Below are positions 25,446 to 63,717 of a stretch of DNA of 64,000 nucleotides, in pieces. The position numbers and the translations under genes are program-made. The DNA is from Vitreimonas sp. (GTDB taxonomy: Bacteria; Patescibacteriota; Microgenomatia; UBA1400; PJMF01): assembly GCA_035627515.1 (NCBI GenBank), contig DASPLQ010000012.1:391269-455268 (forward strand), in the 5' to 3' direction. The notes under the pieces are model-generated. The model saw only the letters and a list, made by a program, of their open reading frames with translations, was not told the DNA's origin and did not search any database. Numbering within the stretch: the stretch's first letter is position 1; each line of letters starts with the position of its first letter.

Positions 25446-25497
25446 AGTGGGGAGATTCTAACATGAGAATCCTCATAAAAATTGGTTTTTGTGTGGC

Positions 25498-25526
25498 TTG
25501 TATGATTTTTGCCAATATTCATACAA
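25498..25526. repeat. palindromic motif P, copy 1
   Basis: TTGTATGA-tttttgccaatat-TCATACAA has 8-bp inverted arms and a 13-nt spacer. A second copy at 41988-42016 has identical arms and the spacer inverted. Confidence 0.6.
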
Positions 25527-25580: not shown

Positions 25581-25611
25581 TGTGCCAATATTAACAAAAA
25601 TCGCACAATCG
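25581..25611. repeat. motif M, copy 1
   Basis: TGTGCCAATATTAACAAAAATCGCACAATCG. It matches 63686-63717 (reverse orientation) at 27/28 positions and shares its first 17 nt with 41867-41883. TGTGC and GCACA form imperfect inverted half-sites 17 nt apart. Confidence 0.6.
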
Positions 25612-29736: not shown

Positions 29737-29776
29737 CAAAAAACCCGCCGGTGGTGATCACGCGGCGGGTTGTTAA
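29737..29776. terminator. bidirectional Rho-independent terminator between convergent genes
   Basis: AAAAAACCCGCCG-gtggtgatcacg-CGGCGGGTTGTTAATTT. A 7-bp GC stem has a T-rich tail on the plus strand and TTTTTTGTT on the minus strand. Confidence 0.65.
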
Positions 29777-29791
29777 TTTAAAAAAGAGTTT

Positions 29792-30463: not shown

Positions 30464-30648
30464 AAGTGCTTAAATGATTAATAGCTAAGAGCCGGATTAT
30501 AGAGGTTTTTGCCTCAGGAAGCAAGTTTAGACCAAACTTCACGTGATATAGGATATAATCGCCAAAAAGTAGAATTTTATCTCTGGAAAGTAGATTCTTT
30601 TCGGTGTATCAAATATGTGTTCAAAATTTATTTCTGTATAAATCTAGA

Positions 30649-37662: not shown

Positions 37663-39327
37663 TCATCGTGAGACCGCTGTTAACGACATTCGCAAAGCGG
37701 AAATATCGCGACGCATCAATTCATCTTCAGCTAAAGATAGCGAGATTTTTTTAACAGCATGGATGACACTAGTGTGGTCACGATTGGAAAACCAACGGGC
37801 GGTTTCAGTTAGTGGCAACTTGAGGTCTTCGCGGAGTAAAAACATGGCTACATGCCGGGCTTTGACGAGGTGTTGAACGCGTTGCGAACCTTTGAGTGCG
37901 GCTTGTTTAACATGATAATGGTTGGCTACAGCACGCAAAACATCATTTGGCGATACTTTAAGAGCGGGTCGTTTCTTTTCACCCTCTGTTTTGAGAATTT
38001 CGTCAATCAACTCTAGAGTAATTGGGCGTTTTTTGAGCTCTACTTCTGATTTGATACTGGTAATAAAGCCCTCGATCTTGCGGGCACTATCGACTCGTGA
38101 GGCTACCACTTGAGCTAGTTCCATCGGGATAGAGATGTTGTGGGCTTGAGCCTTAATCAATAAAATAGCCGTTCGTAACTCAAAAGAGGGCTGCTGAATA
38201 TCGATCATTAAGCCAGCTTCAAACCGAGAACGCAAGCGATCCTCAAGTAAATTAATTTCATGCGGCGGCCGATCCGAGGTTAAAACAATTTGACTAGCTT
38301 GTTTAGTGAGGGCGTTAAACGTATGAAAAAACTCTTCCTGAACGGCATTTTTGCCCGCAATGAACTGGATATCATCAATCAACATCACTTGAGCAGTGCG
38401 ATATTTTTCTTTAAACTTAATGGCTTTTTTGTTTTGAATGGCGCTGACAATTTCATTGGTGAACTCTTCGCCTGTACAGTATAAAACTCGAGTATCGGGA
38501 TTATTTTTTAAAATATTATTCCCAATCGCATGCATCAAGTGAGTTTTGCCCACACCCACCCCACCATATAAAAAGAGGGGATTATAGGTATGTCCAGGGC
38601 GATTGGAGACAGCAGTCGCAGCGGCATGCGCCATTTCATTGGTAGTCGAGACAGCAAAAGTCTCAAAAGTGTAGTCAGTCCTCAAGCCCACTTGGCGAGC
38701 GACCACCACAGCTCTGTCTAAGGCCACCGAGTACATCGTTTGAGGAGAGAAAAGATCTTCGACTCGTGGTGATGAAGAACTCATTCGCGGTGAAGGCTGA
38801 GAAGGGAAGTGTGGTGAGGAAGCAGACGGAAAAGCGTTATCAAGTGAGTGTGAAGCACCGATGCCAGGGCTTTGTAAACGCGAAGACGGGGAAAAGGTAG
38901 TACTGGTAGGCTGAGGGGGGTGATGTCCAGCCTGTTCAGCGGAATGAAGAGAAGAACCGAGTGGAGCTGAAGAAGGCTGACCAAGGTGAGCACCAAGACT
39001 GGTAAAAGAACTCGCTTGTGGTTCATGCTGTCGTGGCACTTGCGGCGTACCGATCTTAAAATCAATCAGCGTATCTTTCTCTAAAATTTTATCTAAGGTT
39101 TGTTTGAGTTGAGTTCCTAGCAGCTTGCGAATATTGTTGACGTGGAAGGCTGTAGGGCTAGTAAAAATAGCTAACACTTTATCGTCACCTTCCAAGACCA
39201 GCTCGCTGAGAGGATTAGAAAGTATCCAGGTATTAAAGACCGCTTTCGTTAATTGAGGTTGTAACTCAGCACACATCTGTTGCCAAATGGCTTGAACTTC
39301 AGCTGGTGAGAGGGCGTAGGTACTCAT
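37663..39327 (-). CDS. dnaA: chromosomal replication initiator DnaA with a Ser/Pro-rich inter-domain linker
   Basis: AAA+ Walker A GGVGVGKTHLMHAIGN, a C-terminal DnaA-box-binding domain (RDHTSVIHAVKKI) and an N-terminal domain I. Length 554 aa. Confidence 0.9.
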   Translation of the reverse strand: MSTYALSPAEVQAIWQQMCAELQPQLTKAVFNTWILSNPLSELVLEGDDKVLAIFTSPTAFHVNNIRKLLGTQLKQTLDKILEKDTLIDFKIGTPQVPRQHEPQASSFTSLGAHLGQPSSAPLGSSLHSAEQAGHHPPQPTSTTFSPSSRLQSPGIGASHSLDNAFPSASSPHFPSQPSPRMSSSSPRVEDLFSPQTMYSVALDRAVVVARQVGLRTDYTFETFAVSTTNEMAHAAATAVSNRPGHTYNPLFLYGGVGVGKTHLMHAIGNNILKNNPDTRVLYCTGEEFTNEIVSAIQNKKAIKFKEKYRTAQVMLIDDIQFIAGKNAVQEEFFHTFNALTKQASQIVLTSDRPPHEINLLEDRLRSRFEAGLMIDIQQPSFELRTAILLIKAQAHNISIPMELAQVVASRVDSARKIEGFITSIKSEVELKKRPITLELIDEILKTEGEKKRPALKVSPNDVLRAVANHYHVKQAALKGSQRVQHLVKARHVAMFLLREDLKLPLTETARWFSNRDHTSVIHAVKKISLSLAEDELMRRDISALRMSLTAVSR

Positions 39328-39474: not shown

Positions 39475-41508
39475 CTAAGAACCCGGAGGTTGATAGCTGT
39501 CGATTGAGTAAGGATCAAGTGGTGAGCCAGTTGCGGCTGGAGCTTTAGTACTGATTGGGGCAGGTGAGGATGTTGCTGCAGTATTTGAGCCAAGCGAGGC
39601 GTTAGGTGTCGGAGCGGCACCACGCAAAGCCCCATTAACCGTGGCCGGAGCTGGACCGGCTGCAGCGGCCGTGCGTGCTAATTGTTGCGCCACGCCGGCT
39701 TGGCGTTTTTTGAGGAGCTCTTCAGGGTTGGTAGTGATGACTTGATGTTCTACGTCACTAGCCACCACGCGCAAAGCCACGTGATTTTGGCCAGCGAAGA
39801 AAATGCCTTCACCGACATCAGCTGACACCAGCAACTGTCGTTCACCTTCGGATAAGTAAAACGTTTCTGCGAGCATCGGAATCGCAGCTGTAGATTGTTT
39901 CATCAAAAATTGAATCGAGGCGTTAGTGACAATAGCTTTGCCGTAGTCGCTGTGCAAGAAGTCTTCCACGTCTTGGGTGATGGTGGTAATACCTAAATAG
40001 TATTTCCGCGCGCGCTTGGCCATGGAGTGGATGAAAGAAGCCGAATCAGGATGCTTCATGAAGTACCACGCCTCATCAATAATTAACAACCGCTTTTTAA
40101 GCGTTTTTTTGATGCGGGTCCAAATGAAGTCTAAAATGATAAACATCGCAATCGGCCGCAGTTCTTCTTCCATTTCTCGGACGGAGAAGACAGTGAACTG
40201 ATTTTTGATGTCGAAGTTTGAAGGTTGGTCAAAAATCCCTCGGAAAGAACCGGTGATGTATTTTTCTAACCGGACTGCAATGTCATTAGCTTCAGCATTT
40301 TCCATACCAATTAACGCTTTGTAGAGGTCTTCCATTAGCGGGGGTTGATTGGTTTGCGTAGCTGGATCAGGAGTAATCCCTTTGGCTTTATAAGCAGCCA
40401 CCAAGGCTCGGTCGAGCATAGCTTCTTGAGAAGACGTCATGTTGCCCAACATCACTTTTAATAATGAATGGAGGGAAATGATCTTTTGACCAAGTTCATT
40501 TTCACCTTCTTCATATAGATTGGATAAATCAAAGGGATTAATTTTTTTATCAGAGTTAAAGGTAAAGTTAATGTACTCACCACCAACTGATTTGGCTAAG
40601 TCTTCATACTCATGTTCGGGGTCGAGCGCAATCACATCGATGCCAAACATTAATTGACGGAGAATTTCTAGCTTCACGGTGTATGATTTTCCGGCACCAG
40701 ATTTGGCGAACACGACCATGTTGGCGTTTTCCATCTTGAAGCGGTCGAAGATGACCAACGAGTCGTTGTGTTCATTGATACCGTAGACAATGCCAGTTTC
40801 CATAGTTAACTCGGACGAAGTGAACGGAAAAGTAGTCGCCAACGAAGTGGTGTCCATGTTACGGGTGACGAGTAATTTATCAACGCCCATCGGCAAGGTG
40901 GTTTTGAAGCCTTCATCCATTTGTAGCGTGGCTTTTTTAGAGACGATTAATAGAGAACCTAAAGTGGATTGAAGATTTTTAGTAACACGATCGAGCTCAT
41001 TTTTATCTTGAGCTTGAATGGTGACGTACAAACCGAATTGATAAAAGCGCTCGGCGCCTTTAGCGAGTTGCTCACGAATTATGCGGGCGTCTTCTAACTT
41101 AACTTCAGTGTTAATATTACTGATTTTTCCGGCCCGGATGTCAGACTGGATTTCAGCTTCCATTTCAGTGATCTTGCGCTTTAAGTTATCCAACACCTCT
41201 TTAACGTCGACTGGAAAAATAAACATCGAGATGTTGAGTTGGTGAGGAAAGTTGATCAAGGGTGACAACCAGTTAGCGGGCACCGTCCGAGGATAACCAG
41301 CCACAAATAAGGTCCGGGTGTAGGTGGAGTTAATTTTCTGATAGGTGAAATCAACCTCAATTGCTTCTGGAGCAATAATATCCTGAATCGTGACTAGACC
41401 CCGCGAAAATTCTTTCAGCTTCTCAACTTCTTGAGCTTCGGCATCTTGTTGTGGATCAGGTTGAGTTTTCTTATTGAAAAACGGCAACGGCAAATTAAAA
41501 CTGGGCAT
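39475..41508 (-). CDS. virB4: VirB4/TrbE/CagE-family T4SS ATPase. The core lacks the extreme N-terminal VirB4 segment and has an Ala/Pro-rich C-terminal tail.
   Basis: Walker A FAKSGAGKS. VirB4-specific Walker B LLIIDEAWYFM (DEAW). The Gram-positive VirB4 N-domain pattern YQKINSTYTRTLFVAGYPRTVPANWLSPLINFP...ISMFIFPVD is present. Confidence 0.75.
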   Translation of the reverse strand: MPSFNLPLPFFNKKTQPDPQQDAEAQEVEKLKEFSRGLVTIQDIIAPEAIEVDFTYQKINSTYTRTLFVAGYPRTVPANWLSPLINFPHQLNISMFIFPVDVKEVLDNLKRKITEMEAEIQSDIRAGKISNINTEVKLEDARIIREQLAKGAERFYQFGLYVTIQAQDKNELDRVTKNLQSTLGSLLIVSKKATLQMDEGFKTTLPMGVDKLLVTRNMDTTSLATTFPFTSSELTMETGIVYGINEHNDSLVIFDRFKMENANMVVFAKSGAGKSYTVKLEILRQLMFGIDVIALDPEHEYEDLAKSVGGEYINFTFNSDKKINPFDLSNLYEEGENELGQKIISLHSLLKVMLGNMTSSQEAMLDRALVAAYKAKGITPDPATQTNQPPLMEDLYKALIGMENAEANDIAVRLEKYITGSFRGIFDQPSNFDIKNQFTVFSVREMEEELRPIAMFIILDFIWTRIKKTLKKRLLIIDEAWYFMKHPDSASFIHSMAKRARKYYLGITTITQDVEDFLHSDYGKAIVTNASIQFLMKQSTAAIPMLAETFYLSEGERQLLVSADVGEGIFFAGQNHVALRVVASDVEHQVITTNPEELLKKRQAGVAQQLARTAAAAGPAPATVNGALRGAAPTPNASLGSNTAATSSPAPISTKAPAATGSPLDPYSIDSYQPPGS

Positions 41509-41590
41509 TGCTCCTTATTGTACGGTACTTTAGGGAGGAAAAGAAAGGGGTGGTGGAGTAAGAAGGGTATATAATGCCGACAAATAAAAG
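41509..41590. promoter_or_regulatory. divergent promoter region between virB4 and the small ORF
   Basis: A -10-like GGTATATAAT at 41560-41570. The RBS AAAGGTGA sits 8 nt upstream of the ATG at 41591. Confidence 0.35.
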
Positions 41591-41824
41591 GTGAAATATA
41601 TGGCAGAAAATGAACGAGAATTAGGGAAAAATGATGAAGCAGAATCAAGGACAGTGGGGCTGTTAAATTGGGAAGAGTTAACTCATGAATCTATCCTCAA
41701 CTTTTTAAGGCTTCAAGGAGGGGTAGAACTGGAAAATCTGTTAGCTCGCCGAACTGTATCTGAAAGACTCCAGATTAATGAGCGGGTAGTGCGACAGGCA
41801 CTTGAAAATGGAAGAAAAAGGTAG
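41591..41824 (+). CDS. small putative DNA-binding protein (77 aa) with a sigma-70 region-4-like HTH
   Basis: ILNFLRLQGG...RTVSERLQINERVVRQALENGRK resembles region 4.2 (LRFGL...TRERVRQIE). It has a good RBS and a -10. Confidence 0.4.
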   Translation: MKYMAENERELGKNDEAESRTVGLLNWEELTHESILNFLRLQGGVELENLLARRTVSERLQINERVVRQALENGRKR

Positions 41825-41866
41825 GTTTAGCGGAAAGGTTTGTTGAAAACACAATTTTTTCTATGC

Positions 41867-41883
41867 TGTGCCAATATTAACAA
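41867..41883. repeat. motif M, copy 2 (first 17 nt conserved)
   Basis: CTGTGCCAATATTAACAA is identical to the start of 25581-25611. Confidence 0.55.
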
Positions 41884-41987
41884 TTTTGAAACAATAAAAC
41901 AGACAATAATTGACAGCTTAAGAAAACAAGGCTTAGAGTTTTCATTGTTTTAAAGATGGTCTTCTTGTTGAGCACAGTTTTTCAGGC

Positions 41988-42016
41988 TTGTATGAATATT
42001 GGCAAAAATCATACAA
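41988..42016. repeat. palindromic motif P, copy 2
   Basis: TTGTATGA-atattggcaaaaa-TCATACAA. The arms match copy 1 and the spacer is the reverse complement of the copy-1 spacer. Confidence 0.6.
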
Positions 42017-42068
42017 ACTACACAAAAACCACTTTTTGAAGAAGAAATGATGAATCACAAACAAAAAC

Positions 42069-43409
42069 CTACAACTCCGCAATCGGCGGTAAATTGCTGG
42101 TTGGCCCAGGTGGGGTGATATCAGTGATAGCTGTTTTGGGATCGGTAGGGTGAGCTGGTTCACCCGGTGGAGTAGAGGATGCTGGTGGTGTGGGAGGCGC
42201 CTCTGCAGCTGGTAATTCACTAATCGTACTGGGTCCGGCTGGAGTGGGAGTAGGAACCGCTGGATCTGGCGCCAATGGTTCAACACTGGCTACAGAAGCA
42301 GTGGGTTGAGGCATGGCAGGCAGAGTGGGGGAGACAGGAGCTTCAACCGACATAACAGTTGTAGGAGCTACCGGAGTGGATGTCATGGCGGGCTGAGTTG
42401 GCGCCGGGGCCTGAAACACAACTTGGTTTTGCACTGGGGTAGCTGGTGGAGCTAGAGGAGTAGGGGAGACCGCTGGAGCAGGGGCAATCACTTCTACCGG
42501 CTGAGCAACAGGAACTTCTGGAACTGGAGTTGGCGCTGTTTCGGTTACAGGCGTAGTGGGAGCTGGCTCAGGTTGAGGTGCCACTGGTTGAGCGACGGCT
42601 TGAGGTTGTTGATAAGCCATAGGATCAGTCGCCGCCGCTTCAGGAGCATACGCTGGTTGAGGCAGTGGTTCCGGGGCTGGCGTAGGAGCTGCGGCCGCTG
42701 TTTGTCCTGTCACCAAGTTTTGCAACTGCATCCGCGCTGAAACTACAGGGGTGGTGTAACTGCGCGTATCAGTGACTTGTTGACCATCTGAAGCTTCAGG
42801 ATTGTAACTTAAGTAGAACAGCTGAATGATATCTTGGGTAGTGAGTTGTTTGGCAAATAAGCCGATGCGACCAAGTTGCGCCATTAAGTGATCGCGCTTA
42901 GGCTCTAAAATGTTACGAGCCTTCTCGATAATCAAACTACGTTCCACGGTACTGACATCAGTTTTTTTGACACCTGGAATCACTGAAGAAGGTGGTAACA
43001 AACCCATTTCCAAAGCACTGGCGGGAATGACCACATAGAATTTTTTATCTAAGACATTACGTTCACGAATTAAATCCGAGACAAAAGCGCGATATTGAGC
43101 AATTTGTTGTTTGCGCAAAGGCGATCCTGCTTGATCCTCCTGGTCTTTGAGGAGTTGTAAATATGAGGTGATATCTTTAGTTTGGGACCGAACCACGATT
43201 TGAATGGGATAGTTCAAAGAGTTAATTAAACCGGCATAAGCGTAAATGACTGCATCTTGTTCTTCCTCAGCAAACAATCCAAAGTTGATGGCGCTGACGT
43301 TGAGAACGAGCGCCACTGCACCATCCTTCATGATCAATAAATCATTGGTTATATCGTAAATATCGAGAAATTGTTGGGTAGTGGAGTGAATTTGGGCAGG
43401 AGTAGGCAT
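42069..43409 (-). CDS. VirB4 N-terminal-domain-like protein fused to a ~220-aa Pro/Ala/Thr-rich disordered tail
   Basis: LIMKDGAVALVLNVSAINFGLFAEEEQDAVIYAYAGLINSLNYPIQIVVRSQTKDITSYL follows the pattern of the first ~90 residues of Gram-positive VirB4 ATPases (dG.y..ilev.pINF.L.s.eEQ...i..y..fln.l....QI...s...d). That pattern is missing from the 39475..41508 ORF. Confidence 0.5.
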   Translation of the reverse strand: MPTPAQIHSTTQQFLDIYDITNDLLIMKDGAVALVLNVSAINFGLFAEEEQDAVIYAYAGLINSLNYPIQIVVRSQTKDITSYLQLLKDQEDQAGSPLRKQQIAQYRAFVSDLIRERNVLDKKFYVVIPASALEMGLLPPSSVIPGVKKTDVSTVERSLIIEKARNILEPKRDHLMAQLGRIGLFAKQLTTQDIIQLFYLSYNPEASDGQQVTDTRSYTTPVVSARMQLQNLVTGQTAAAAPTPAPEPLPQPAYAPEAAATDPMAYQQPQAVAQPVAPQPEPAPTTPVTETAPTPVPEVPVAQPVEVIAPAPAVSPTPLAPPATPVQNQVVFQAPAPTQPAMTSTPVAPTTVMSVEAPVSPTLPAMPQPTASVASVEPLAPDPAVPTPTPAGPSTISELPAAEAPPTPPASSTPPGEPAHPTDPKTAITDITPPGPTSNLPPIAEL

Positions 43410-43440: not shown

Positions 43441-44583
43441 TTAATTTAAACTCCTAATCTCTAATGGCTCGACCACGTTCCCACTTAAGACCAACTGCAG
43501 CGGCGTAAACTGCCAGCCGTCTTTATCGATCACCAGCGAGTACGTCCCGTTAGCCAACGGTGTCGTGATGAAAAATTGACCTAAGGCATTGGTTTTGACA
43601 GCCCGTGCGACCATTCCTGAAGCATCTTGAATTTCCACGATGGCATCATTGATTAAGTCATTTTTTGTCGAGAGCACCATGCCCACCAATTTATTTGGTT
43701 CGGTGGGTTTGAGAGGGAAGGGTAAGTTGGCATTCATAGCCGCCGCTTGAGTTTGGTTTAAGTTAAGCGCTTGCGTGGGGGCAGTGACAGTACTATAGAC
43801 TGCCTGACCCACGGTATGCACATACCCTTCTTGTGTCGCTTCTTCTTCAGCGATGCCTTTTTTAACATCGACGGTTTGCAGTTCAGGCACCTCGATGTTA
43901 TGGGCCACTTGATCTGTTTCTAAGACTTGTTTATTGACTGCTTCAGAGACGTGATGAGTTGCAGCCACTTCCATCGTGAAAACCGGTGTATAGGTAGCAT
44001 CGGTAGTGACAGCATCGAGTTGAGCTTCAGGCTCTTTCAAGCTGTGGGGCCGGACGACTAAAGAAGGACGATGAGCTTGTTGGACTGAATCAACTTGGGT
44101 GACGATGACTTCGCCAAAGCTGGCTAAAATGGCGGCCATGCGTTGGCGCTCATACGCTTCGTCGGGATCGACATAGCCCACCGATAACGAACCCAAATAC
44201 TCTTTGATGCGTTGGCGACGAGCGGGAGTCAAGTCGATTTCAACAGTATTATTGGTTTCACCTTGAGGTTTATATAAAAAAGGATCAGGAATTTTAGGAT
44301 CTTTGCGCCAAAAAAACTTGGTTGGTTTATAAAGGACACTGAAAAAAGTCACGATCCAGTGATCGAGAGGACGCTCCTCAAATGGCACAAAGGCAGCCAT
44401 CGCTCCCACAGCCACCGCCAAACCAATGAAGGGCCACTTGATTACATTTGGCAAATTGGTGGTGTGAATCATGAAACCCACCACACAGCCCGCTCCAACT
44501 TCGAGGAACTGTTTGAGGGTCATGTTACCGATAATATGAAACCGGTAACCAACCACGTCTTGAGGAATGGCGTGTTCACGCAT
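43441..44583 (-). CDS. VirB3/PrgI-like two-TM membrane protein with a C-terminal beta-sandwich (carboxypeptidase-regulatory-like) domain
   Basis: The N-terminus IPQDVVGYRFHIIGNMTLKQFLEVGAGCVVGFMI...WPFIGLAVAVGAMAAFVPF has two TM helices. It resembles the PrgI family and sits immediately upstream of the VirB4-N ORF. The C-terminal part is MVLSTKNDLINDAIVEIQD...GQFFITTPLANGTYSLVI. Confidence 0.4.
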   Translation of the reverse strand: MREHAIPQDVVGYRFHIIGNMTLKQFLEVGAGCVVGFMIHTTNLPNVIKWPFIGLAVAVGAMAAFVPFEERPLDHWIVTFFSVLYKPTKFFWRKDPKIPDPFLYKPQGETNNTVEIDLTPARRQRIKEYLGSLSVGYVDPDEAYERQRMAAILASFGEVIVTQVDSVQQAHRPSLVVRPHSLKEPEAQLDAVTTDATYTPVFTMEVAATHHVSEAVNKQVLETDQVAHNIEVPELQTVDVKKGIAEEEATQEGYVHTVGQAVYSTVTAPTQALNLNQTQAAAMNANLPFPLKPTEPNKLVGMVLSTKNDLINDAIVEIQDASGMVARAVKTNALGQFFITTPLANGTYSLVIDKDGWQFTPLQLVLSGNVVEPLEIRSLN

Positions 44584-44620: not shown

Positions 44621-45643
44621 TTACAATGGTAAACCGGTGCGGACAGCTGGGGTTAAGACCTCAATCGTGAAACTGTCTTGAGTGGTGTTTTTGGCAGTGC
44701 CGGTAAAATGATAAAACGGATACGCCAAGTTACTCTTACTATCAGTTCTGTACTCCAAACTCACACTGGTCATTTCGCCATCGGCAACATCACGGATATC
44801 GAGTGGCAAAGCGGTGTCATCATAGGCAGCGATGATGGAGCCTTGGTTGCGGTTGGTTAAGTTTTCCAGGGCTTCATTAACGGAAATTAACTCCACATTT
44901 TGATTGGCACGAGTCAGTGAGTAACTAGGTGTGAATGTGGCGCTTTGGACTTGTTGCCGAGCATTGACTATTATTACCACTGGCGGATTAGCTTGATAAT
45001 TAAAGAATACCGGAATGTCCTCAAATACATAACTAAACGGCACCCGGGCCATTTGGGCTTGAGAGGAATCAACTTCTTCACTTTCCACCGCCGCTGCGTA
45101 ATAGGTGATTTGGTTTTCCAGCGCTTTCAGCTCGAGAGCGCTCAAATATTCATCTACGAAGCCCTGGGAAATATCTAAAGCTTCGGTTTTGGTAATAATA
45201 CCGGCGCTGTCGGTGGCGACCACGTCTTGAGTGAGGCTTAACTCACCAGTGTTTACGTCTTTGCTTAAACTATAGCGGTCGCCAACCCACAAACCTTTTG
45301 AACTTGGGTGGGGTTGGAGTTGGAAATCATTCACGATCTCGCTTTCGATCTCTGCGGTGGCAAACGGCGTAGCTGACAATAAGGGCAAAGTTGCCGGCTG
45401 AGTAAATGGCTCACCCACGTACCGAAAACCGGCAAAGTTAGTAGTGCTGCCGTCGGCATTGGCGGTAGTAAACTCAGTCGTGGGAACTTCGGAAATCGGA
45501 GGAGTCAATAACCGTAAGGTCAACGCAATGACGATGCCGACAAGCGCAAACGCCAGCAAATACCATAGCCAACGGCTACTGAACGGGTTCGGTGTAACAG
45601 GTTCGGACGGGATCGTAAAGTTTGACATCTTTATCAGGCACAA
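44621..45643 (-). CDS. bitopic membrane protein (340 aa). It could be the VirB8/TcpC-like component by position and topology.
   Basis: A single N-terminal TM (WLWYLLAFALVGIVIALTL) with the rest extracytoplasmic. No motif-level support. Confidence 0.35.
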   Translation of the reverse strand: MCLIKMSNFTIPSEPVTPNPFSSRWLWYLLAFALVGIVIALTLRLLTPPISEVPTTEFTTANADGSTTNFAGFRYVGEPFTQPATLPLLSATPFATAEIESEIVNDFQLQPHPSSKGLWVGDRYSLSKDVNTGELSLTQDVVATDSAGIITKTEALDISQGFVDEYLSALELKALENQITYYAAAVESEEVDSSQAQMARVPFSYVFEDIPVFFNYQANPPVVIIVNARQQVQSATFTPSYSLTRANQNVELISVNEALENLTNRNQGSIIAAYDDTALPLDIRDVADGEMTSVSLEYRTDSKSNLAYPFYHFTGTAKNTTQDSFTIEVLTPAVRTGLPL

Positions 45644-48600
45644 AGTTGCGAATGCGACTGCTGGAAGTATTATAGAACTGTCCGCTAGTATTAGAAACCT
45701 CGTAATGAAGGTGTGGTCCCGTAATCACAACCTTCGCTGAGCCACCGGTAGAACCAACTTCACCAATGGGATGTCCAGCGGGAATCTCTTTATCATTTGA
45801 TAAGCGCGAATCGATTTTACTTAAATGAGCAAACACGAATCGTTCACTACCGGTATCAAGCACGACATACTTGCCAAAAGAACCAAAACCACCCCCCAAA
45901 CTGTTAATCTTAACAGTTCCAGCAAACGGTGTATAAACAGGTACACCACGGTTGGCACCAATGTCAAAGGAGTCAGATTTGCCATGCGAGTGAGAGCCAA
46001 ACGGTAATTGCGTAATCCGACCATCAACTGGCCAGCAGCCGTTTTGATTTTGTGGACACTCACCAATACAAATCACCTCTGCGCCACTGGCATTCAAGTT
46101 CTCACCAGATTTGTTTTCTTCTCCTCGTTCTAACAGTTCCGGAGTAGCCTGAGCTGAGAATAAAATTTCTACTTTATTAGAAACGTTACTGTCTCTAAAT
46201 GCCGAGTCAAAGGTTTGAGAATACGGATTGAGCGTGATTTCTTCACCACTATTAAGAATAATTTCACCATCGACCAGCCGCTCAGCCGGCACGAGCTCGG
46301 CGGTAGTCCGGGTGGGAAGGGTCGGTGTGGGGTCAGAGCCGCGGGTCTCAGTGTTAAGTTTGACCGTCATTACGTCCACGACGTTGCGAATTTTTAAGTC
46401 ATAACCTTTGTTGGCTTTGATGGTAATCGAGTAATCTGCCGTGGCAGGCAGCTCAGCATTTTCGAATTTAATTTTTGGTGAGACGCGTTTTTCGATGGTC
46501 ACATAAGGAGAGAGTTCACCACTCGAATCAGTGGTTGGCAGAGGTTGCAAGGTGGTGGAAACAGTGGCGGCAGCAGTCATGAACGTAGTCACCCCAATGA
46601 TGCCAGCGCCCGCTACCGAAGCTCCCACTACACCAAAGCCACCCCCCCCGGCTGCAGCTCCAGCACCGCCACTACCCAAGATGCCCCCACCGCCACCTCC
46701 TGAAGCAGCACCGCTGCCAAAAGGGTTAGTCAGGATATTACCAGCGCCACCACCTCCCGTAAGAGAAGAGAAGGCGCCACTAATTGAATTTAAGCCATTT
46801 TGAATGAAGGAACCAATGCCGTAGCCGACTCCAGCTCCACCGATGGCACCACCTAGCGCGCCAAACGGACCTCCTACTGAACCTAAAAACGCCCCTACGC
46901 CAGCTCCCACCCCGGTGGTCAGCGCAATGATGGGTGATTTGTTCATCAACATCAAGAAGGCAGTAGTCAAACCTGTAGCACCTGCCGCCAGCCCCATCAG
47001 GATTTTTTCACGATTATTAAGGACCTTTTGGGCGATGCGCTCTACAGCGGCTCCTCCTACAGGAGTCATGTATGCCGAGGCCAATGTCCCCAGGGCTTTG
47101 GCAGCGACAGCGTCAGTAGCAGCGCGCAAACGATCATTGGCTGCCATGCCTTCTGGTTTACCACCCATTACGTATTGGCGAAGTTTGTCCACAGCACTGA
47201 GGCCTTTGGTGGCTGGGCCGCCCTCTCCGGCACCGGCAGCTCCTGGGCTTGTTTGGGCGCCACCTCCTAGAGTCCGGATGGTGTTCATTACCGAGTGCGG
47301 CACGAAGCCGTTGCCAGGGTTGCCACCCACTTGTTCGACTTCGACAGTGTTCAGGTGGAGCTCAGTAAAAATTTCATACCGGATTTCATAGGAAATCAGC
47401 AAATGAGCCGGAACTTCTTGACCACTTTTTTGTGCAGGGAGCGTATACGCATTGACTAGATCTTCAGCTGTGATGTGAGTTTGAAGTAACTTAGCTGGAG
47501 CCTGAGTCCGAGCTGCAGCTTGGTGAAACCACTGGGTGTGTTGCTGGGAGTCTTGAGTTTCGGCCGGAAAAATATGTTGAAACTGGGCTAAGCCCTTTTC
47601 ACCTTTAGGATCAAATTCTGCAAATAACTGTTGATAATACGTCGTTAGTTCTGGTCGGAGTTGGTCGAGCTCAGCTGGTTTAATCTCAAAGCCAAACAGC
47701 GTCTGAAAGTCTTTTGGTGACAAAAATTGAATCCAGTCATCAGAATGACCTGTAATCGCCAAGGCTTCTAATCGTGCTTTGGTGCTCCGTAGTTTACCTA
47801 AATCATTGGGATTGCCTGAAGCATCAAGCGTAATCAGGCCAGCTTCAGCCAGCTTTTGTTTCAGGTAAGAGGCTGATTTAGGTTCTTGGCCAATATTGGC
47901 TCCTACAGCCGGTGTCACTTCTGTGAACTGTGTTTGTGGTTGTGTAGTCTGGGGGAGTTGATAGCGAATGGCTACGTCGCTGACATTAAAGTAGGTATGC
48001 AGGTGTTGAAGTTCCCGCACCAGGCCGCTCATGTTGTTTTTGGTGAGCAATTTTTCCAGATCCGCTGGGTTAGTTTCTTGGAGACGACTCAAGTGGATAT
48101 CTACGTAGCCCGAGACTAAGCTCTCGAGGTCAGCCATCGGCATGGTGTTAATATCGAAGCCTTCATTGACCAGCTGCGCCTTCATGCTGGCCAGCAAGCC
48201 ATATTGGAGGGTCGTTTTGACGCGGGCTAGTTGTTTAGCGGCTTCTTCGGGAGCCATGGTGCCGGCTGCAATCTCGGCTGCAATTTCCGCAGCTCCCAGA
48301 GGTTTAGCAAGCTGGTTTTTGGTAATTTCTTCAGGTTTTTGTTCAGTCTGAGGTTCCTGGGTGGTTTTCGTCTCAGGTTTTTGGTCGTCATCGAGATCGT
48401 CCTCGGTCACCAGTTTCTCGTCGGCATCTTTTTCTTTTTGTGGTTGAGCTAATTTTTGCTCAGCCTCTACAAAGGCAGGGAGATTAGTAGCTAAAACCTG
48501 CAGCGCACTCGACAAACGCCCCAGATTAACGGGCGTCAAAAACGCGGCTTCATTAAAGCGTTCTGCAGATTGAGGATCTTGGCCCAAGCTCAAGAGTTCT

Positions 48601-49004
48601 TTTTCTGAAATGGATCCGAGGATTTGACTAGCTAATTGTTGGAGTTGGTGTTGCTTGCCAAACTGGTAGTTATATAAGCGCGAAATAAGGTCCGTGCAGA
48701 AAGCTGCCACGTCAGAGTAATACAGCGTCGTCCGATCAAAATTTGGACTGCGGCGACTGCGATGCGGTCGTTGAGGGAAAACTGAGCGTAACGTGCTGTT
48801 GCTATGGGTGTTGGCAAAGGGAACATTATGAAATTCTTTGTCAACATCTAAGCCAATGTCTTGGCGAAAAGCTTGGTTGAGTTCGGTTAAAAACGGCAGA
48901 ACTTGAGCCAAAGGAATATCGGAAGGAATTCGTTTGAGTTCGTCAAAACGCGTCAAAGTTTGAGCGTCCACGACAATTGGGGCAGGCATGACGGCGTCGA
49001 CCAT
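45576..49004 (-). CDS. giant membrane protein (1142 aa) with a polyglycine-rich TM region and a C-terminal M23 (LytM) metallopeptidase domain. Candidate T4SS-associated cell-wall hydrolase.
   Basis: The C-terminus HSHGKSDSFDIGANRGVPVYTPFAGTV...FGKYVVLDTGSERFVFAHLS...GEVGSTGGSAKVVITGPHLHYEV carries the M23 zinc-ligand motifs HxxxD and HxH. The Gly-rich hydrophobic block is GGGAGNILTNPFGSGAASGGGGGGILGSGGAGAAAGGGGFGVVGASVAGAGIIGV. Confidence 0.7.
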   Translation of the reverse strand: MVDAVMPAPIVVDAQTLTRFDELKRIPSDIPLAQVLPFLTELNQAFRQDIGLDVDKEFHNVPFANTHSNSTLRSVFPQRPHRSRRSPNFDRTTLYYSDVAAFCTDLISRLYNYQFGKQHQLQQLASQILGSISEKELLSLGQDPQSAERFNEAAFLTPVNLGRLSSALQVLATNLPAFVEAEQKLAQPQKEKDADEKLVTEDDLDDDQKPETKTTQEPQTEQKPEEITKNQLAKPLGAAEIAAEIAAGTMAPEEAAKQLARVKTTLQYGLLASMKAQLVNEGFDINTMPMADLESLVSGYVDIHLSRLQETNPADLEKLLTKNNMSGLVRELQHLHTYFNVSDVAIRYQLPQTTQPQTQFTEVTPAVGANIGQEPKSASYLKQKLAEAGLITLDASGNPNDLGKLRSTKARLEALAITGHSDDWIQFLSPKDFQTLFGFEIKPAELDQLRPELTTYYQQLFAEFDPKGEKGLAQFQHIFPAETQDSQQHTQWFHQAAARTQAPAKLLQTHITAEDLVNAYTLPAQKSGQEVPAHLLISYEIRYEIFTELHLNTVEVEQVGGNPGNGFVPHSVMNTIRTLGGGAQTSPGAAGAGEGGPATKGLSAVDKLRQYVMGGKPEGMAANDRLRAATDAVAAKALGTLASAYMTPVGGAAVERIAQKVLNNREKILMGLAAGATGLTTAFLMLMNKSPIIALTTGVGAGVGAFLGSVGGPFGALGGAIGGAGVGYGIGSFIQNGLNSISGAFSSLTGGGGAGNILTNPFGSGAASGGGGGGILGSGGAGAAAGGGGFGVVGASVAGAGIIGVTTFMTAAATVSTTLQPLPTTDSSGELSPYVTIEKRVSPKIKFENAELPATADYSITIKANKGYDLKIRNVVDVMTVKLNTETRGSDPTPTLPTRTTAELVPAERLVDGEIILNSGEEITLNPYSQTFDSAFRDSNVSNKVEILFSAQATPELLERGEENKSGENLNASGAEVICIGECPQNQNGCWPVDGRITQLPFGSHSHGKSDSFDIGANRGVPVYTPFAGTVKINSLGGGFGSFGKYVVLDTGSERFVFAHLSKIDSRLSNDKEIPAGHPIGEVGSTGGSAKVVITGPHLHYEVSNTSGQFYNTSSSRIRNFVPDKDVKLYDPVRTCYTEPVQ

Positions 49005-49060: not shown

Positions 49061-50695
49061 TTATGCAGCGGCTGTATGGGCGTCGGAAGCTTGATAAAGA
49101 TCAACGATCGCATGGTCTTGACCGCTGAGCACTTGGCCTAAACCAACCGATAGTTTTGGTTGTGCGTTGTGTATGTTTTTTTTGTTTGATTGATCAACCT
49201 TTGTTTTAGACAAAGAACCCTTTTTGTCAGAGCTTGCTGAACTGTTCCATTGTTTATTAACCGATGTCCCAGGTACCCAACTACATACATGGCAAGAGGT
49301 ATCACTCAGACCGATCTTTGTGTTGCCACATTGTCGACAGCGTTTGACGGGACACAGCTCGCCGTTCGGCAAGCGTTCAAACAAGCCACTCGAGCCTTTG
49401 CCCATACCATGTTCTACAAAGCCACCAAAGTCAAAGTCGCCGCAGGGGATGACACCCATAATACGTTTGCCAATTGTGGGCAAAGCACCAGATAACGCGC
49501 GGTAGTAAGTATCAGCACTGCCGCCTTTCGTCAAAATATCGTATTTATCAGCTATTTCTTTACCAGGAACCGTCACTTGCCAACCGATGGCATTGCCGAT
49601 GGCGCCAAAGGCTTTTTGCAACCGTTCGGCTCTCCCAAAAGGGGTAGCCAGCAACTCTTTCACAAAAATAGCGAGGATGGCTTGGCGGGCAGTCAATAAA
49701 TCTTGGTTTTGTTTGGCTTGGCGATGGTCGGCTTTAGCGACGCGGGCAAATAACTCAGTATCACCAGCCAGCGCGCCCAACCCAAACAACACATCTCGAG
49801 GATCACTAGCTTTGAGATTATTTTTGCGATCTCGGCTCCAGTCTTCGCCTAAGGTCAGAATGCGCATCATAAACGCCATCTCATTCGTCGGAGAAAAATG
49901 ATCCGTTTGGTCTAAATTTAAAAATGTGTCTACCTGCGTTTGCCAATCTAAAGAATGTAGGTATCCCTTCGTTTCAATCACATAGCGCCAGCCGTCGTGC
50001 GAGTATTTATCTTTGACTGTTGATGGCACTGCAATTACCCGGTAAATATTTAAAAACGAGTCTTTGCCACCGTGAACCTGGTGGGGGGGCATTGCTAAGG
50101 CGTGCCAGTTACCCACCACCCCGGTGGTTTTCTGACCATCTGGCAAAGTCATATCGATGACGGGTAAGTTTTCAGCCAGGCTAGCCAATAGCGGCGGCGC
50201 TAACACTGGATCCGTGGGCAGCACTTCTGCAATGAGTTTTTTGATCTGCTCATACTCCAATCTATATCGCTCGATAGTTGAGTCAGGTGCGCCAATCTTG
50301 ATCGCATTTTCCCAACCGTATTTAGCACGACCAACTACATCTGGGCGCAGTGGATAATCAGGATCTTCCACGGTGAAGCTCCCGGCAGCATCCCAGATCA
50401 CATCATAGTAATCGGTGATCGTAAAAGGATGAACGATAAATTCTTGATGGAACGTCCGCAGTTGTTTTTCCAGTTGGGGACCCAGCGCCACTTTGGCAGC
50501 CTCAACTCCGTGTTTCTTCACCAATGTCTCGAACTCATCAAAGAGATGGGACATGTTGAAGGCTTGCTGAGAGGACTTTTCAGCTGATTTTTGGGATTTG
50601 CTCTCTTTGGAATTTGGAATTTTCCGCGACAAATCAGGCCGTTTCCACAACCACGGTTTAAACCAACGACTCGTTTCTTTGCGTAAAGCTCCCAT
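49061..50695 (-). CDS. hypothetical protein (544 aa; possibly 497 aa from MSHLFDE) with a C-terminal CxxC...CxxC zinc ribbon
   Basis: CPVKRCRQCGNTKIGLSDTSCHVCSW. No other family recognised. It contains a G7 tract at 50083-50089. Confidence 0.45.
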   Translation of the reverse strand: MGALRKETSRWFKPWLWKRPDLSRKIPNSKESKSQKSAEKSSQQAFNMSHLFDEFETLVKKHGVEAAKVALGPQLEKQLRTFHQEFIVHPFTITDYYDVIWDAAGSFTVEDPDYPLRPDVVGRAKYGWENAIKIGAPDSTIERYRLEYEQIKKLIAEVLPTDPVLAPPLLASLAENLPVIDMTLPDGQKTTGVVGNWHALAMPPHQVHGGKDSFLNIYRVIAVPSTVKDKYSHDGWRYVIETKGYLHSLDWQTQVDTFLNLDQTDHFSPTNEMAFMMRILTLGEDWSRDRKNNLKASDPRDVLFGLGALAGDTELFARVAKADHRQAKQNQDLLTARQAILAIFVKELLATPFGRAERLQKAFGAIGNAIGWQVTVPGKEIADKYDILTKGGSADTYYRALSGALPTIGKRIMGVIPCGDFDFGGFVEHGMGKGSSGLFERLPNGELCPVKRCRQCGNTKIGLSDTSCHVCSWVPGTSVNKQWNSSASSDKKGSLSKTKVDQSNKKNIHNAQPKLSVGLGQVLSGQDHAIVDLYQASDAHTAAA

Positions 50696-53900: not shown

Positions 53901-54234
53901 TGTGGCCAATGATGTTACTCAAGCAGTTAACAAAGTTATTAACCCTGACTGGAGTGCAAATGCAATTGGCCCACGTCAAACCTTTGATTTCTTAAACCGT
54001 GTACCATCTTCACAAGAACTGCAAGGTATGTCTGGTCAATTCTTATTGAAGCCTGAACAAGCCCAACGCTTAAGTGAAGCTGTCCAAAACTATAATAACT
54101 ATAGTGGTGAAACCAGGACTTTATTGGAAGGTTTATATAAAGGGACCGTGGACACCGACAACTTAGTTAATAACCCAGATGACTTGCAAAAGTTATTAAG
54201 AATCGCAGTAGAAACCAATGGCGCTCAAGTTTAA
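50926..54234 (+). CDS. giant hypothetical protein (1102 aa; alternative start MAETAL at 50995)
   Basis: An uninterrupted 3.3-kb ORF. It has internal Gly/Ala-rich hydrophobic segments (LLMFGGSLAFRAGLTGAAGLNPLVSGAAAGIAV and IGVLALGTAVVF). No known domain recognised. Confidence 0.5.
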   Translation: MYHYSSNNTPLRKRPVDHYNGFIMAETALMITGQVVENKDKKRFEIPKWSDLLQRKGILGSVARLTEKVRTFFSRERKDKELPKATPTTEARAKLNNAGYWAILVEAQKARNEDKPVTKDLPILDGQNPNPDLVAAHIIQQICEAAYKGNNINFEDTFAAQTIKEYLTANNKTIYEYLAENGYPITKLADTIAALASEAAGNEVPENQQETTTPAPEVIDANVAAEREKFKAKIFNNTPTPTSYWNLFKRAHNTHLIGKIDWVYTPAINTDNPDMADVAARLILAKLTNNDALKKTAYDELANYLKFTVNKDKTVQERAQITISDTDIDAFIEQGGYKDELINQIVEQVKKEAEVKSEQIRFKIENSSHWPKIQANIDTNKPLNEGLAMDADPTATSLDDAVVMAMSYIEGSNPSYGTIKEGLKLHDMDDEATLRRLAAEWKKERQEKYIKARLEVARARLSDLGYWKLIDQRRAFKTPSEEQKNSDEYKAYAKELQDLKTAFAEKKATPEQVLILVLLGEVPYRKREVKQALDAADYPEDVIILLGKEAGVTIDRQPLWKAAINGTSVEDLADKYGMDPEEVRRHLRSKVPANGLLMFGGSLAFRAGLTGAAGLNPLVSGAAAGIAVDAYRVAAGGADVFFDNAAQNTSAALFGGKDESLTERIRNERRSGIGGAAMWALRKLGILFNAPGSALTQVVIGVTRHRAEASNLIDKMGISVDQQTKDIDSIQLETIVKEAINSGNFRQVQKLANELATLARYQYGASDVYGETGSRPNKEANGLLDRFRHYVNPEHGAEQLAQLHEKLVATVDKLLDESPKIQTMREHRAANTLTAEDMPRLALENEWKRTKDRAKTIGVLALGTAVVFRTVTNVASGMAFVEAGKVAVDLGRDVVRGIGYVAERGIDALRGRNEAEAFNPALDGMRVQTGVRQGVEAARNQPPAPGSWAAAREILNNARPGRSIIEDANIKPDGGMLWTHYQNMGLPGRGVNVANDVTQAVNKVINPDWSANAIGPRQTFDFLNRVPSSQELQGMSGQFLLKPEQAQRLSEAVQNYNNYSGETRTLLEGLYKGTVDTDNLVNNPDDLQKLLRIAVETNGAQV

Positions 54235-63626: not shown

Positions 63627-63685
63627 TTTTAAATTCTTTTTTATATAGTAATTGTCTCAGTCTCCCAAAGTGTATTTTCTGTGCG

Positions 63686-63717
63686 TTGTGCGGTTTTTGT
63701 TAATATTGGCACAATCG
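63686..63717. repeat. motif M, copy 3 (reverse orientation)
   Basis: TTGTGCGGTTTTTGTTAATATTGGCACAATCG. Its reverse complement matches 25581-25611 at 27/28 positions. Confidence 0.6.

What the first reader, a model, noticed from the sequence alone, without database searches (positions are those of the whole stretch)
41509..43409. VirB4 appears split: its N-terminal domain is a separate ORF with a 220-aa Pro-rich tail, separated from the ATPase core by a 560-bp insert
ORF 42069..43409 begins with the characteristic first segment of Gram-positive VirB4 proteins (KDGAVALVLNVSAINFGLFAEEEQDAVIYAYAGLINSLNYPIQIVVRSQTKD). ORF 39475..41508 begins with the next conserved segment (YTRTLFVAGYPRTVPANWLSPLINFP) and carries Walker A and DEAW. 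In canonical VirB4 these are contiguous.

Here the N-fragment has acquired a long disordered PAPTPV-rich tail and a stop codon. A 560-bp spacer follows, containing an oppositely oriented small ORF and two conserved motifs (M2, P2). The whole arrangement suggests an ancient insertion that split the gene, with both halves retained as a two-subunit VirB4.
Basis: partly seen in the sequence, partly recalled or inferred. Interest (0 to 1): 0.65.

Follow-up and report, generated by a model that had tools for sequence, protein, structure and literature searches.

The report
Two-gene VirB4 ATPase in Patescibacteria
The motor ATPase (VirB4) of this ultra-small bacterium's type IV secretion system really is encoded as two genes, but this split is old, widespread and already described as the TrsD + VirB4 pair, and the 560-bp gap between the genes is a late, genome-specific addition rather than the cause of the split.

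Summary
ORF 42069..43409 (-, 446 aa) is the first ~200 residues of a VirB4 plus a 218-aa tail (27% Pro). ORF 39475..41508 (-, 677 aa) is the rest of VirB4. They are 560 bp apart.

A fused Patescibacteria VirB4 (P0212, 787 aa) aligns collinearly with both pieces: residues 6-199 with the N-fragment and 213-771 with the core.

The causal story is not supported. All 80 nearest species representatives are split. The core follows on the same strand in 74 of them, with a median gap of 19 nt, sometimes overlapping. The closest relative has a 54-bp gap.

The same break point occurs in TraD/TraE of a pSK41-like staphylococcal plasmid and in a Streptomyces locus.

The spacer is AT-rich. It holds an ORF with no homologue in 5.8 billion proteins and two copies of a genome-specific motif. 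It has no transposon-like ends.

TrsD homologues next to virB4 near dnaA in Patescibacteria were published in 2025, so this is a member of a known arrangement.

Three smaller things may be new:
- split and fused forms interconvert between close relatives;
- the variable tail ends in a conserved LPPLPEI-like peptide;
- a conserved TACAAT box lies 8 nt before the core ATG.

The parts
42720..43409 (-). N-terminal subdomain of VirB4 encoded as a separate protein (TrsD/TraD-like; Pfam PF26593 'TraC-like'), residues 1-230 of the 446-aa ORF
   Evidence: 53% identity to residues 6-199 of fused VirB4 P0212. NCBIfam VirB4_plasma 105-236/894 at E 4e-7 and TrsD 16-142/201 at E 1e-6. PF26593 on record. AF2 model pLDDT 78, and 9 of the top 10 Foldseek PDB hits are TrwK/VirB4. 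1243 and 1886 homologues in two searches.
42069..42719 (-). Pro/Ala/Thr-rich, probably disordered tail (~218 aa) ending in the conserved C-terminal peptide LPPIAEL
   Evidence: Composition. Tail length is 0-315 aa among orthologues. The motif [LM]PP[LVI][PA]E[IL] sits at the extreme C-terminus in 28 of 60 tailed orthologues, against 9 internal matches in 8579 tail residues.
41509..42068 (.). 560-bp AT-rich spacer specific to this genome; a secondary insertion between the two already separate genes
   Evidence: GC 0.364. No similarity in 84 related loci. Relatives have a median gap of 19 nt. No Rfam family, tRNA or intrinsic terminator. No terminal inverted or direct repeats.
41591..41824 (+). 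Orphan ORF (77 aa from GTG; 74 aa from ATG 41600) on the opposite strand; coding status unproven
   Evidence: Its only match among 5.8 billion proteins is itself. No PHROG match, and only a sub-threshold Pfam CggR_N hit at E 0.0098.
41988..42037 (-). 50-bp repeat ('M2') with an internal hairpin TTGTATGA-N13-TCATACAA; a second, inverted copy lies at 25477-25526
   Evidence: 94% identity over 50 bp. Exact 29-mer present twice, 0 expected. Two independent Logan contigs end inside it.
41867..41883 (+). 17-mer TGTGCCAATATTAACAA ('P2'); shares the 10-mer TGCCAATATT with M2
   Evidence: 3 exact copies in the window against 0.01 expected. The 10-mer occurs 8 times against 0.28 expected.
41517..41522 (-). 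-10-like TACAAT box 8 nt upstream of the core ATG; likely the core gene's own promoter (inferred)
   Evidence: TAnAAT sits at the same position in 29 of 72 related loci.
39475..41508 (-). VirB4 core: rest of the N-terminal domain plus the ATPase domain, with a 44-aa N-terminal extension (MPSFNLPLPFFNKK...) and a 75-aa Ala/Pro-rich C-terminal tail
   Evidence: conju_CD1110 at 385 bits (cut-off 325), profile 178-733/752. Pfam P-loop_TraG, AAA_10 and DUF87. PDB 4AG5 VirB4 C-terminal domain at E 4e-49. 66% identity to P0212 213-771.
43441..44583 (-). PrgI/VirB3-like membrane protein with a C-terminal CarboxypepD_reg-like domain, immediately upstream of the N-fragment
   Evidence: Pfam PrgI 27.7 bits (cut-off 27.0); CarboxypepD_reg 26.3 bits (below cut-off). 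Same gene order in relatives L003 and L088.
45576..49004 (-). 1142-aa protein with a C-terminal M23 peptidase domain; likely the cell-wall hydrolase of the secretion locus
   Evidence: Pfam Peptidase_M23 at E 2e-14. Conserved next to VirB4 in L003/L004.
37663..39327 (-). dnaA, directly downstream of the VirB4 core (followed by dnaN, rpmH, rnpA)
   Evidence: Pfam Bac_DnaA at E 1e-67. ORFs. Same synteny in L002 and reported for Microgenomatia/Paceibacteria in PMC12102498.

Best explanation
This is the chromosomal, origin-proximal type IV secretion locus of a Patescibacteria (Microgenomatia/Pacebacteria-like) genome. In it, VirB4 is made as two polypeptides.

The first gene product is the first ~200-residue subdomain of the VirB4 N-terminal domain, the counterpart of TrsD/TraD of pGO1/pSK41. 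It is followed by a variable, disordered Pro-rich tether that ends in a conserved LPPIAEL-type peptide. The second gene product is the remainder of the N-terminal domain plus the RecA-like ATPase domain.

Inferred: the two proteins associate non-covalently at the cytoplasmic face of the membrane, together with the PrgI/VirB3-like protein encoded just upstream, and rebuild a canonical VirB4 that powers the secretion machine. The gene order VirB3-like, N-subdomain, core mirrors the N-to-C order of a fused VirB4.

Shown: the break lies in a short linker (between ...YN and IAPxxIxVDF...) that can be opened or closed by a small change. A relative whose core is 88% identical to a fused VirB4 has the two genes overlapping by ATGA.

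Shown: the 560-bp spacer is a later, genome-specific insertion into the intergenic linker of an already split pair. It carries an orphan ORF on the other strand and two copies of a genome-specific TGCCAATATT motif.

Inferred: the insert is tolerated because the core gene has its own -10-like TACAAT box 8 nt before its ATG, as in many relatives.
For: Complementary profile coverage.

Collinear, non-overlapping BLASTP of both pieces onto fused P0212: 6-199 and 213-771. P0212 covers conju_CD1110 3-735/752. Its AF2 model aligns over its full length to R388 TrwK/VirB4 (E 8e-23, TM 0.60).

The N-fragment model has TrwK/VirB4 chains as 9 of its top 10 PDB hits.

80 of 80 nearest species are split. 74 have the core directly downstream, with a median gap of 19 nt. 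The closest relative has a 54-bp gap.

The break point is the same in S. aureus traD (227 aa) + TraE (670 aa, starting at CD1110 position 183) and in Streptomyces (319 aa + 621 aa, starting at position 189, 4-nt overlap).

Fused and split forms are interleaved in one lineage, and L088 has an ATGA overlap.

The spacer has no relatives, and its ORF is an orphan.

The -10-like box is conserved.

Literature: TrsD homologues with remote homology to the VirB4 N-terminus are the most abundant T4SS component in Patescibacteria, 1,664 of them are associated with VirB4 (i.e. encoded near it), the loci lie near dnaA, and the TrsD homologue is listed as essential in Ca. S. epibionticum ML1 (PMC12102498).
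Against: No direct evidence that the two proteins bind each other, or that the N-fragment works as part of VirB4; no multimer prediction could be run.

The N-fragment scores far below the curated cut-off of the NCBIfam TrsD model (28.7 against 200 bits). The local Pfam copy does not contain PF26593, so that hit rests on the precomputed annotation alone.

Foldseek E-values for the N-fragment alone are weak (8e-3 and worse).

The fused-protein model has only moderate confidence (pLDDT 66).

The neighbour-joining tree that nests the fused form among split ones has no support values.

The promoter inference rests on a consensus hexamer only. The sigma-70 scan found no full promoter on the minus strand.
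Confidence: 0.85

Rival explanations
1. One reading: an ancient insertion of the 560-bp segment into an intact virB4 split the gene, and both halves were then retained.
For: The two halves are separated by an unusually long spacer carrying an opposite-strand ORF and repeats.
Against: The split exists with 0-50-nt gaps or overlaps in 49 of 71 related species. The closest relative has a 54-bp gap. The spacer sequence and its ORF are found in no other locus or protein database entry. The same break point occurs in Staphylococcus and Streptomyces systems. Both sides of the junction carry lineage-wide conserved terminal extensions.
Confidence: 0.03
2. The upstream ORF is an independent accessory protein. 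On this view it is a diverged paralogue of the VirB4 N-terminal subdomain that arose by duplication, not half of VirB4, and the 677-aa protein is a self-sufficient short VirB4.
For: TrsD has no assigned function (PMC12102498). The N-fragment evolves faster than the core (60-75% against 80-90% identity). Six of 80 loci have no core downstream on the same strand within the retrieved flank: two end at a contig edge, one has the core upstream on the opposite strand, and three show no core. In Gracilibacteria, TrsD homologues are reported not to be associated with VirB4. The predicted secondary structures of the first and second subdomains have the same order of elements.
Against: The core lacks profile positions 1-177 that fused relatives have. 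Fused proteins contain one copy of each part, in the same order as the genes. Fused and split forms differ only at the linker in near relatives. hhalign between the two subdomains is not significant (probability 1.2%).
Confidence: 0.09
3. The long spacer is an assembly artefact or one state of an invertible segment. The join across the 50-bp M2 repeat may be wrong or variable, so the two genes may not lie 560 bp apart in all cells.
For: Two independent Logan contigs from SRR7003767 both end inside M2. One of them (16,509 bp) spans almost exactly the distance between the two inverted M2 copies at 25.5 kb and 42.0 kb.
Against: The assembled orientation gives the synteny seen in relatives: N-fragment, core, dnaA, dnaN, rpmH, rnpA. 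The sequence on each side of M2 is confirmed independently. The repeat copies differ at 3 of 50 positions, so reads can resolve them. Either way the split itself is unaffected.
Confidence: 0.06
4. virB4 is a decaying pseudogene in this genome and the two ORFs are remnants.
For: The interruption by a non-coding-looking AT-rich segment.
Against: Both ORFs are full length relative to orthologues. The catalytic motifs are intact. The core is 90% identical to the nearest relative's. The arrangement is conserved across 80 species.
Confidence: 0.02

Closest known systems
TrsD/TraD + TrsE/TraE of staphylococcal conjugative plasmids pGO1/pSK41 (MPF-FATA, pGO1 subclass)
   Same: Same gene order: small VirB3-like gene, then a ~200-aa N-subdomain protein, then a ~670-aa VirB4 core. 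Same break point: TraE starts at conju_CD1110 position 183, the window core at 178. The window N-fragment hits the TrsD model (E 1e-6) and S. aureus TraD (BLASTP E 9e-8).
   Different: Only 23% identity to TraD, and the score is far below the TrsD model's cut-off. The staphylococcal protein has no Pro-rich tail. Its genes are 20 bp apart on a conjugative plasmid with a relaxase, whereas this locus is chromosomal, next to dnaA, with a 560-bp spacer.
Patescibacteria T4SS as described by Quinonero-Coronel et al. 2025 (PMC12102498)
   Same: TrsD homologue next to virB4, a PrgI/VirB3 homologue, location beside dnaA/dnaN/rpmH/rnpA, and a VirB4 allied to MPF-FATA. The window matches all of these.
   Different: A term search of the paper found no occurrence of 'split', 'truncated' or 'two genes', so it does not appear to describe the pair as a split gene. 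The passages read do not mention fused and split forms interconverting, the variable tail with its terminal motif, or spacers between the genes. This genome's 560-bp orphan-bearing spacer is unusual among 71 compared loci.
Full-length (fused) VirB4 of the CD1110 family and fused Patescibacteria VirB4 (e.g. P0212, Amesbacteria-like)
   Same: Collinear with the two window ORFs joined end to end: 53% and 66% identity. Same neighbours (PrgI, M23 peptidase, dnaN, dnaA).
   Different: One polypeptide with a 13-residue linker. It lacks the 218-aa tail and the 44-aa N-terminal extension of the core.
TrwK/VirB4 of plasmid R388 (PDB 7O41, 8RTD and others)
   Same: Best structural match for the N-fragment model (prob 0.96-1.0) and a full-length match for the fused relative (E 8e-23, TM 0.60).
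   Different: A Gram-negative, single-chain VirB4 with ~11-14% sequence identity. Residue-level correspondence of the break point was not obtained.

Membership tests
VirB4 ATPase (core ORF 39475..41508) | Walker A and Walker B motifs of the RecA-like ATPase domain | tested here: met
   SGAGKS at ~268-274 and LLIIDEAW at 474-481. PDB 4AG5 VirB4 C-terminal domain at E 4e-49.
VirB4 ATPase (core ORF 39475..41508) | Score above the curated cut-off of a VirB4 family model | tested here: met
   NF045971 conju_CD1110: 385.1 bits against a cut-off of 325.
VirB4 ATPase (core ORF 39475..41508) | Complete N-terminal domain within the same polypeptide | tested here: not met
   The match starts at profile position 178/752 (CD1110), 282/894 (VirB4_plasma), 167/800 (TraC-F) and 236/792 (TIGR00929). 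The missing part is in the upstream ORF.
TrsD/TraD family (N-fragment ORF 42069..43409) | Score above the curated cut-off of NCBIfam NF041427 | tested here: not met
   28.7 bits against a cut-off of 200, E 1.1e-6, profile 16-142/201. It is a remote homologue, not a member at the curated level.
TrsD/TraD family (N-fragment ORF 42069..43409) | Homology to the N-terminal portion of full-length VirB4 | tested here: met
   53% identity to P0212 residues 6-199. VirB4_plasma 105-236/894. Foldseek top hits are TrwK/VirB4.
TrsD/TraD family (N-fragment ORF 42069..43409) | Encoded between the VirB3-like gene and an N-terminally short VirB4 | tested here: met
   Order PrgI-like, N-fragment, core. Same in S. 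aureus L085 and in 74 of 80 related loci.
Pfam PF26593 TraC-like | Match to the Pfam model | tested here: inconclusive
   The precomputed annotation lists PF26593 for this exact protein and for most homologues. The model is absent from the local Pfam copy, so no score could be obtained.
Two-subunit (split) VirB4 | Physical association of the two gene products into one functional ATPase | not testable with these tools
   No multimer prediction was possible.
Patescibacteria MPF-FATA-like T4SS locus | PrgI/VirB3 homologue and a cell-wall hydrolase next to virB4, near dnaA | tested here: met
   PrgI 27.7 bits (cut-off 27.0); Peptidase_M23 at E 2e-14; dnaA directly downstream.
Patescibacteria MPF-FATA-like T4SS locus | VirB6-like channel protein, VirB2-like pilins, VirD4 coupling protein | not tested
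   The neighbouring ORFs 49061..50695, 50926..54234 and 54747..56201 gave no Pfam hit. They were not examined further.

The most novel reading that the evidence does not exclude
The split is not neutral. On this reading, the variable Pro-rich tether with its conserved C-terminal LPPLPEI-type peptide, and the conserved MPxxxLPLPFFKKK N-terminus of the core, are docking elements. They would let the N-subdomain be recruited, exchanged or regulated separately from the ATPase, supported by independent transcription from a leaderless-type promoter. That would be a regulated assembly step for the secretion system that Patescibacteria need for their epibiotic life. Repeated fission and fusion in close relatives would then mark a functional switch between two modes.
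Probability: 0.15. Interest if true: 0.6.

Novelty: new member of a known kind. Interest (0 to 1): 0.3.

Why it matters
The T4SS is reported as essential for the epibiotic growth of the one Patescibacteria strain tested (PMC12102498, citing Wang et al. 2023), and its TrsD homologue has no assigned function. Showing that TrsD-like proteins are literally the missing first subdomain of a short VirB4 gives TrsD a concrete predicted role. The supporting points are the shared break point in Staphylococcus, Streptomyces and Patescibacteria, and the interconversion of fused and split forms among close relatives. For this window specifically the result is mostly corrective: the eye-catching 560-bp insert is incidental.

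Tried and rejected
- The Pfam scan of the N-fragment gave only sub-threshold hits (Hobbit, TraC_F_IV), because PF26593 is absent from the local copy.
- A sequence search of the PDB with the N-fragment found nothing.
- PHROGs gave only a weak terminase-like hit for the N-fragment, treated as P-loop-neighbour noise, and nothing for the small ORF.
- The spacer has no Rfam family, tRNA or intrinsic terminator, and its RNA fold is no better than shuffles (z -0.8).
- The spacer has no terminal inverted or direct repeats that would mark a transposon or MITE.
- The spacer has no DNA similarity in 84 related loci.
- I tested whether the VirB4 N-terminal domain is a tandem duplication, with the N-fragment as repeat 1. 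The order of secondary-structure elements is similar, but hhalign probability is 1.2%, so the idea is not supported.
The fused homologue was modelled instead, at moderate confidence.
- The window holds no second copy of either half.
Full report
**Observation**

On the minus strand there is a 446-aa ORF (42069..43409) and a 677-aa ORF (39475..41508), separated by 560 bp (41509..42068). The spacer contains a 77-aa ORF on the plus strand at 41591..41824.

The minus-strand gene order is:
- a 1142-aa M23-peptidase protein;
- a 340-aa protein;
- a PrgI/VirB3-like protein;
- the N-fragment;
- the spacer;
- the ATPase;
- dnaA, dnaN, rpmH and rnpA.

The 677-aa protein passes the curated cut-off of the CD1110 VirB4 family: 385 bits against 325. 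However, it matches only profile positions 178-733 of 752. It likewise starts at 282/894, 167/800 and 236/792 of three other VirB4 models. It carries Walker A and LLIIDEAW and matches the solved VirB4 C-terminal domain 4AG5 at E 4e-49.

The 446-aa protein matches positions 105-236/894 of the mycoplasma VirB4 model and 16-142/201 of the TrsD/TraD model. Its precomputed Pfam annotation is PF26593 'TraC-like'. Residues 229-446 are 27% Pro, 18% Ala and 13% Thr.

**Is it really a split VirB4?**

A search of 1.8 billion representative proteins with the first 230 residues found 1886 relatives. Nearly all of the best 150 were stand-alone proteins of 200-700 aa. One was a 787-aa protein, P0212, from a groundwater Patescibacteria contig.

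P0212 covers the whole CD1110 profile, 3-735/752. The window N-fragment (residues 7-203) aligns to P0212 6-199 at 53% identity. The window core (45-602) aligns to P0212 213-771 at 66% identity. The two pieces are therefore adjacent and non-overlapping, with a 13-residue linker between them.

P0212 sits in the same kind of locus: PrgI, VirB4, M23 peptidase, dnaN, dnaA. Its AF2 model (pLDDT 66) aligns over its full length to R388 TrwK/VirB4 (E 8e-23, TM 0.60). An AF2 model of the window N-domain (pLDDT 78) has TrwK/VirB4 chains as 9 of its 10 best PDB matches, although the E-values are weak.

The N-fragment does match the VirB4 N-terminus, and the core does not contain that part. There is no second copy of either half in the window.

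**Did the 560-bp insert cause the split?**

No. I fetched the 80 best loci from one-genome-per-species bacterial assemblies. All are Patescibacteria, titled Pacebacteria, Paceibacterota, Microgenomates, Woesebacteria or Chisholmbacteria; some carry evident mislabels such as 'Pseudomonadales'.

None has a fused gene. In 74 the core follows on the same strand. In the 71 loci without masked bases the gap has a median of 19 nt. Nine gaps are zero or overlapping, 40 are 1-50 nt, and only one exceeds 500 nt.

The nearest relative (N-domain 78% identical, core 90%) has a 54-bp gap. The window's spacer matches nothing in those loci.

The same architecture and break point are present outside Patescibacteria:
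- On a pSK41-like S. aureus plasmid, traD (227 aa, a full TrsD match) is followed after 20 bp by a 670-aa TraE that begins at CD1110 position 183.
- On a Streptomyces replicon, a 319-aa ORF is followed, with a 4-nt overlap, by a 621-aa core starting at position 189. That ORF hits the window N-domain at E 2e-10.

So the split long predates the spacer.

**Fission and fusion are labile**

Searching with P0212 showed roughly 45 fused proteins (783-882 aa) among the best 120. These are interleaved with cores of 573-667 aa that are 76-88% identical to P0212's core part. Both forms carry Amesbacteria names.

One such core (P0294, 88% identical) is preceded by a 198-aa TraC-like gene overlapping it by ATGA. 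The break falls in the linker that reads YHRSQIETKATSVPTIAP in the fused protein. A neighbour-joining tree, without support values, nests the fused form among split ones, with split outgroups.

**What is the spacer?**

The spacer is AT-rich: 36% GC, against 58% for the tail-coding DNA just upstream.
- Its plus-strand ORF has no homologue other than itself among 5.8 billion proteins. It is annotated as a hypothetical protein on a 1.41-Mb contig.
- There is no Rfam family, tRNA or terminator, no unusually stable fold, and no transposon-like terminal repeats.
- It carries a 50-bp repeat whose inverted copy lies at 25477-25526. It also carries a 17-mer found three times in the window. Both contain TGCCAATATT, which occurs 8 times against 0.28 expected.

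Two independent short-read contigs end inside the 50-bp repeat. One of them spans the 16.5 kb between the two inverted copies. The join is therefore the one point that rests on the original assembly, and an invertible segment cannot be excluded. The assembled orientation does give the conserved synteny.

Other lineages also carry insertions between the halves: a small membrane ORF in L030 and a 1097-aa membrane protein in L069.

**How it probably works**

Shown: the two genes jointly encode one VirB4-equivalent. They are co-conserved, and in most relatives they are arranged for translational coupling.

Inferred: the products assemble non-covalently with the VirB3-like protein at the membrane to form the T4SS motor.

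Two features suggest the halves are adapted to being separate:
- The tail varies from 0 to 315 aa. In 28 of 60 tailed orthologues it ends in [LM]PP[LVI][PA]E[IL], and the window ends LPPIAEL. The same pattern occurs only 9 times within 8579 internal tail residues.
- The core begins with a conserved MPxxxLPLPFFKKK peptide. A TAnAAT box lies 7-8 nt before its ATG in 29 of 72 loci, including the window's TACAAT. This suggests an own promoter of the leaderless type, which would explain why a 560-bp insert with an opposite-strand ORF is tolerated.

**Comparison with what is known**

Quinonero-Coronel et al. 2025 (PMC12102498) report the following:
- TrsD is the most abundant T4SS component in Patescibacteria: 2,272 homologues, 1,664 of them associated with VirB4.
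- The TrsD homologue is listed as essential in Ca. S. epibionticum ML1.
- The locus lies beside dnaA, dnaN, rpmH and rnpA in Microgenomatia and Paceibacteria.

The window is therefore a member of a described arrangement. A term search of that paper found no occurrence of 'split', 'truncated' or 'two genes'. What I did not find there:
- explicit complementary coverage of the profile by the two genes;
- the shared break point across three phyla;
- fusion/fission among near relatives;
- the terminal motif of the tail.

**Verdict**

The insertion hypothesis is rejected. Novelty is low for the main claim, so interest is modest.

Noticed in passing
window 42069-42092 (C-terminus of the N-fragment); loci L005-L063: The variable Pro-rich tails end in a conserved peptide [LM]PP[LVI][PA]E[IL] in 28 of 60 tailed orthologues. 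The same pattern occurs only 9 times in 8579 internal tail residues. The binding partner is unknown.
   Followed up: partly
window 41517-41522 and 41467-41508; 72 related loci: A TAnAAT box (mostly TACAAT) lies 7-8 nt upstream of the VirB4-core ATG in 29 of 72 loci. The core N-terminus MPxxxLPLPFFKKK is conserved. Together these suggest an own, leaderless-type promoter for the second half.
   Followed up: partly
window 25477-25526 and 41988-42037 (inverted); 10-mer at 2153, 25510, 25583, 41869, 41995, 59883, 60366, 63702: TGCCAATATT occurs 8 times against 0.28 expected. Two inverted 50-bp copies bracket a 16.5-kb segment that contains dnaA, dnaN, rpmH, rnpA and the VirB4 core. That segment is a separate contig in an independent assembly, so it may be invertible or an assembly ambiguity.
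   Followed up: partly
window 25581-25610 and 63684-63713: Two of the three 17-mer sites share about 30 nt, TGTGCCAATATTAACAAAAAyCGCACAAy. The ends form an inverted pair, TGTGC...GCACA, which looks like a regulator-binding site.
   Followed up: no
proteins P0307, P0308, P0311, P0317, P0318, P0359, P0361, P0370, P0386: Several Patescibacteria VirB4 cores are 1158-1215 aa and carry intein and LAGLIDADG homing-endonuclease domains (PF14890, PF14528).
   Followed up: no
L088 3408-5755; L003 6001-8364: A split pair overlapping by ATGA has a core 88% identical to that of a fused 787-aa VirB4. Fused and split forms coexist in one Amesbacteria-like lineage.
   Followed up: yes
L069 4406-7699; L030 6368-6812: Other genomes also carry insertions between the two halves: a 1097-aa multi-pass membrane protein gene in L069 and a small membrane ORF in L030, both on the same strand as virB4.
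   Followed up: partly
window 43441-44583: The PrgI/VirB3-like protein is 380 aa and carries a C-terminal CarboxypepD_reg-like beta-sandwich (below the Pfam cut-off). The same combination is on record in relative L088.
   Followed up: no
window 37663-39327: DnaA has a Pro/Ser-rich low-complexity stretch of about 110 aa between its N-terminal domain and its ATPase domain. The VirB4 core also ends in a 75-aa Ala/Pro-rich tail. Such linkers seem to be a habit of this genome.
   Followed up: no
window ~29000-31000: GC skew changes sign near 30 kb, about 8 kb away from dnaA (37.7-39.3 kb).
   Followed up: no
record titles: Many of these Patescibacteria MAGs are labelled 'Pseudomonadales', 'Vitreimonas sp.' or 'Limisphaerales' in public records. 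These are evident taxonomic mislabels.
   Followed up: no
P0212 model, residues 16-198 and 218-371: The two halves of the VirB4 N-terminal domain show the same order of secondary-structure elements, hinting at an ancient tandem duplication with the gene split between the repeats. The profile-profile comparison was not significant (probability 1.2%).
   Followed up: yes
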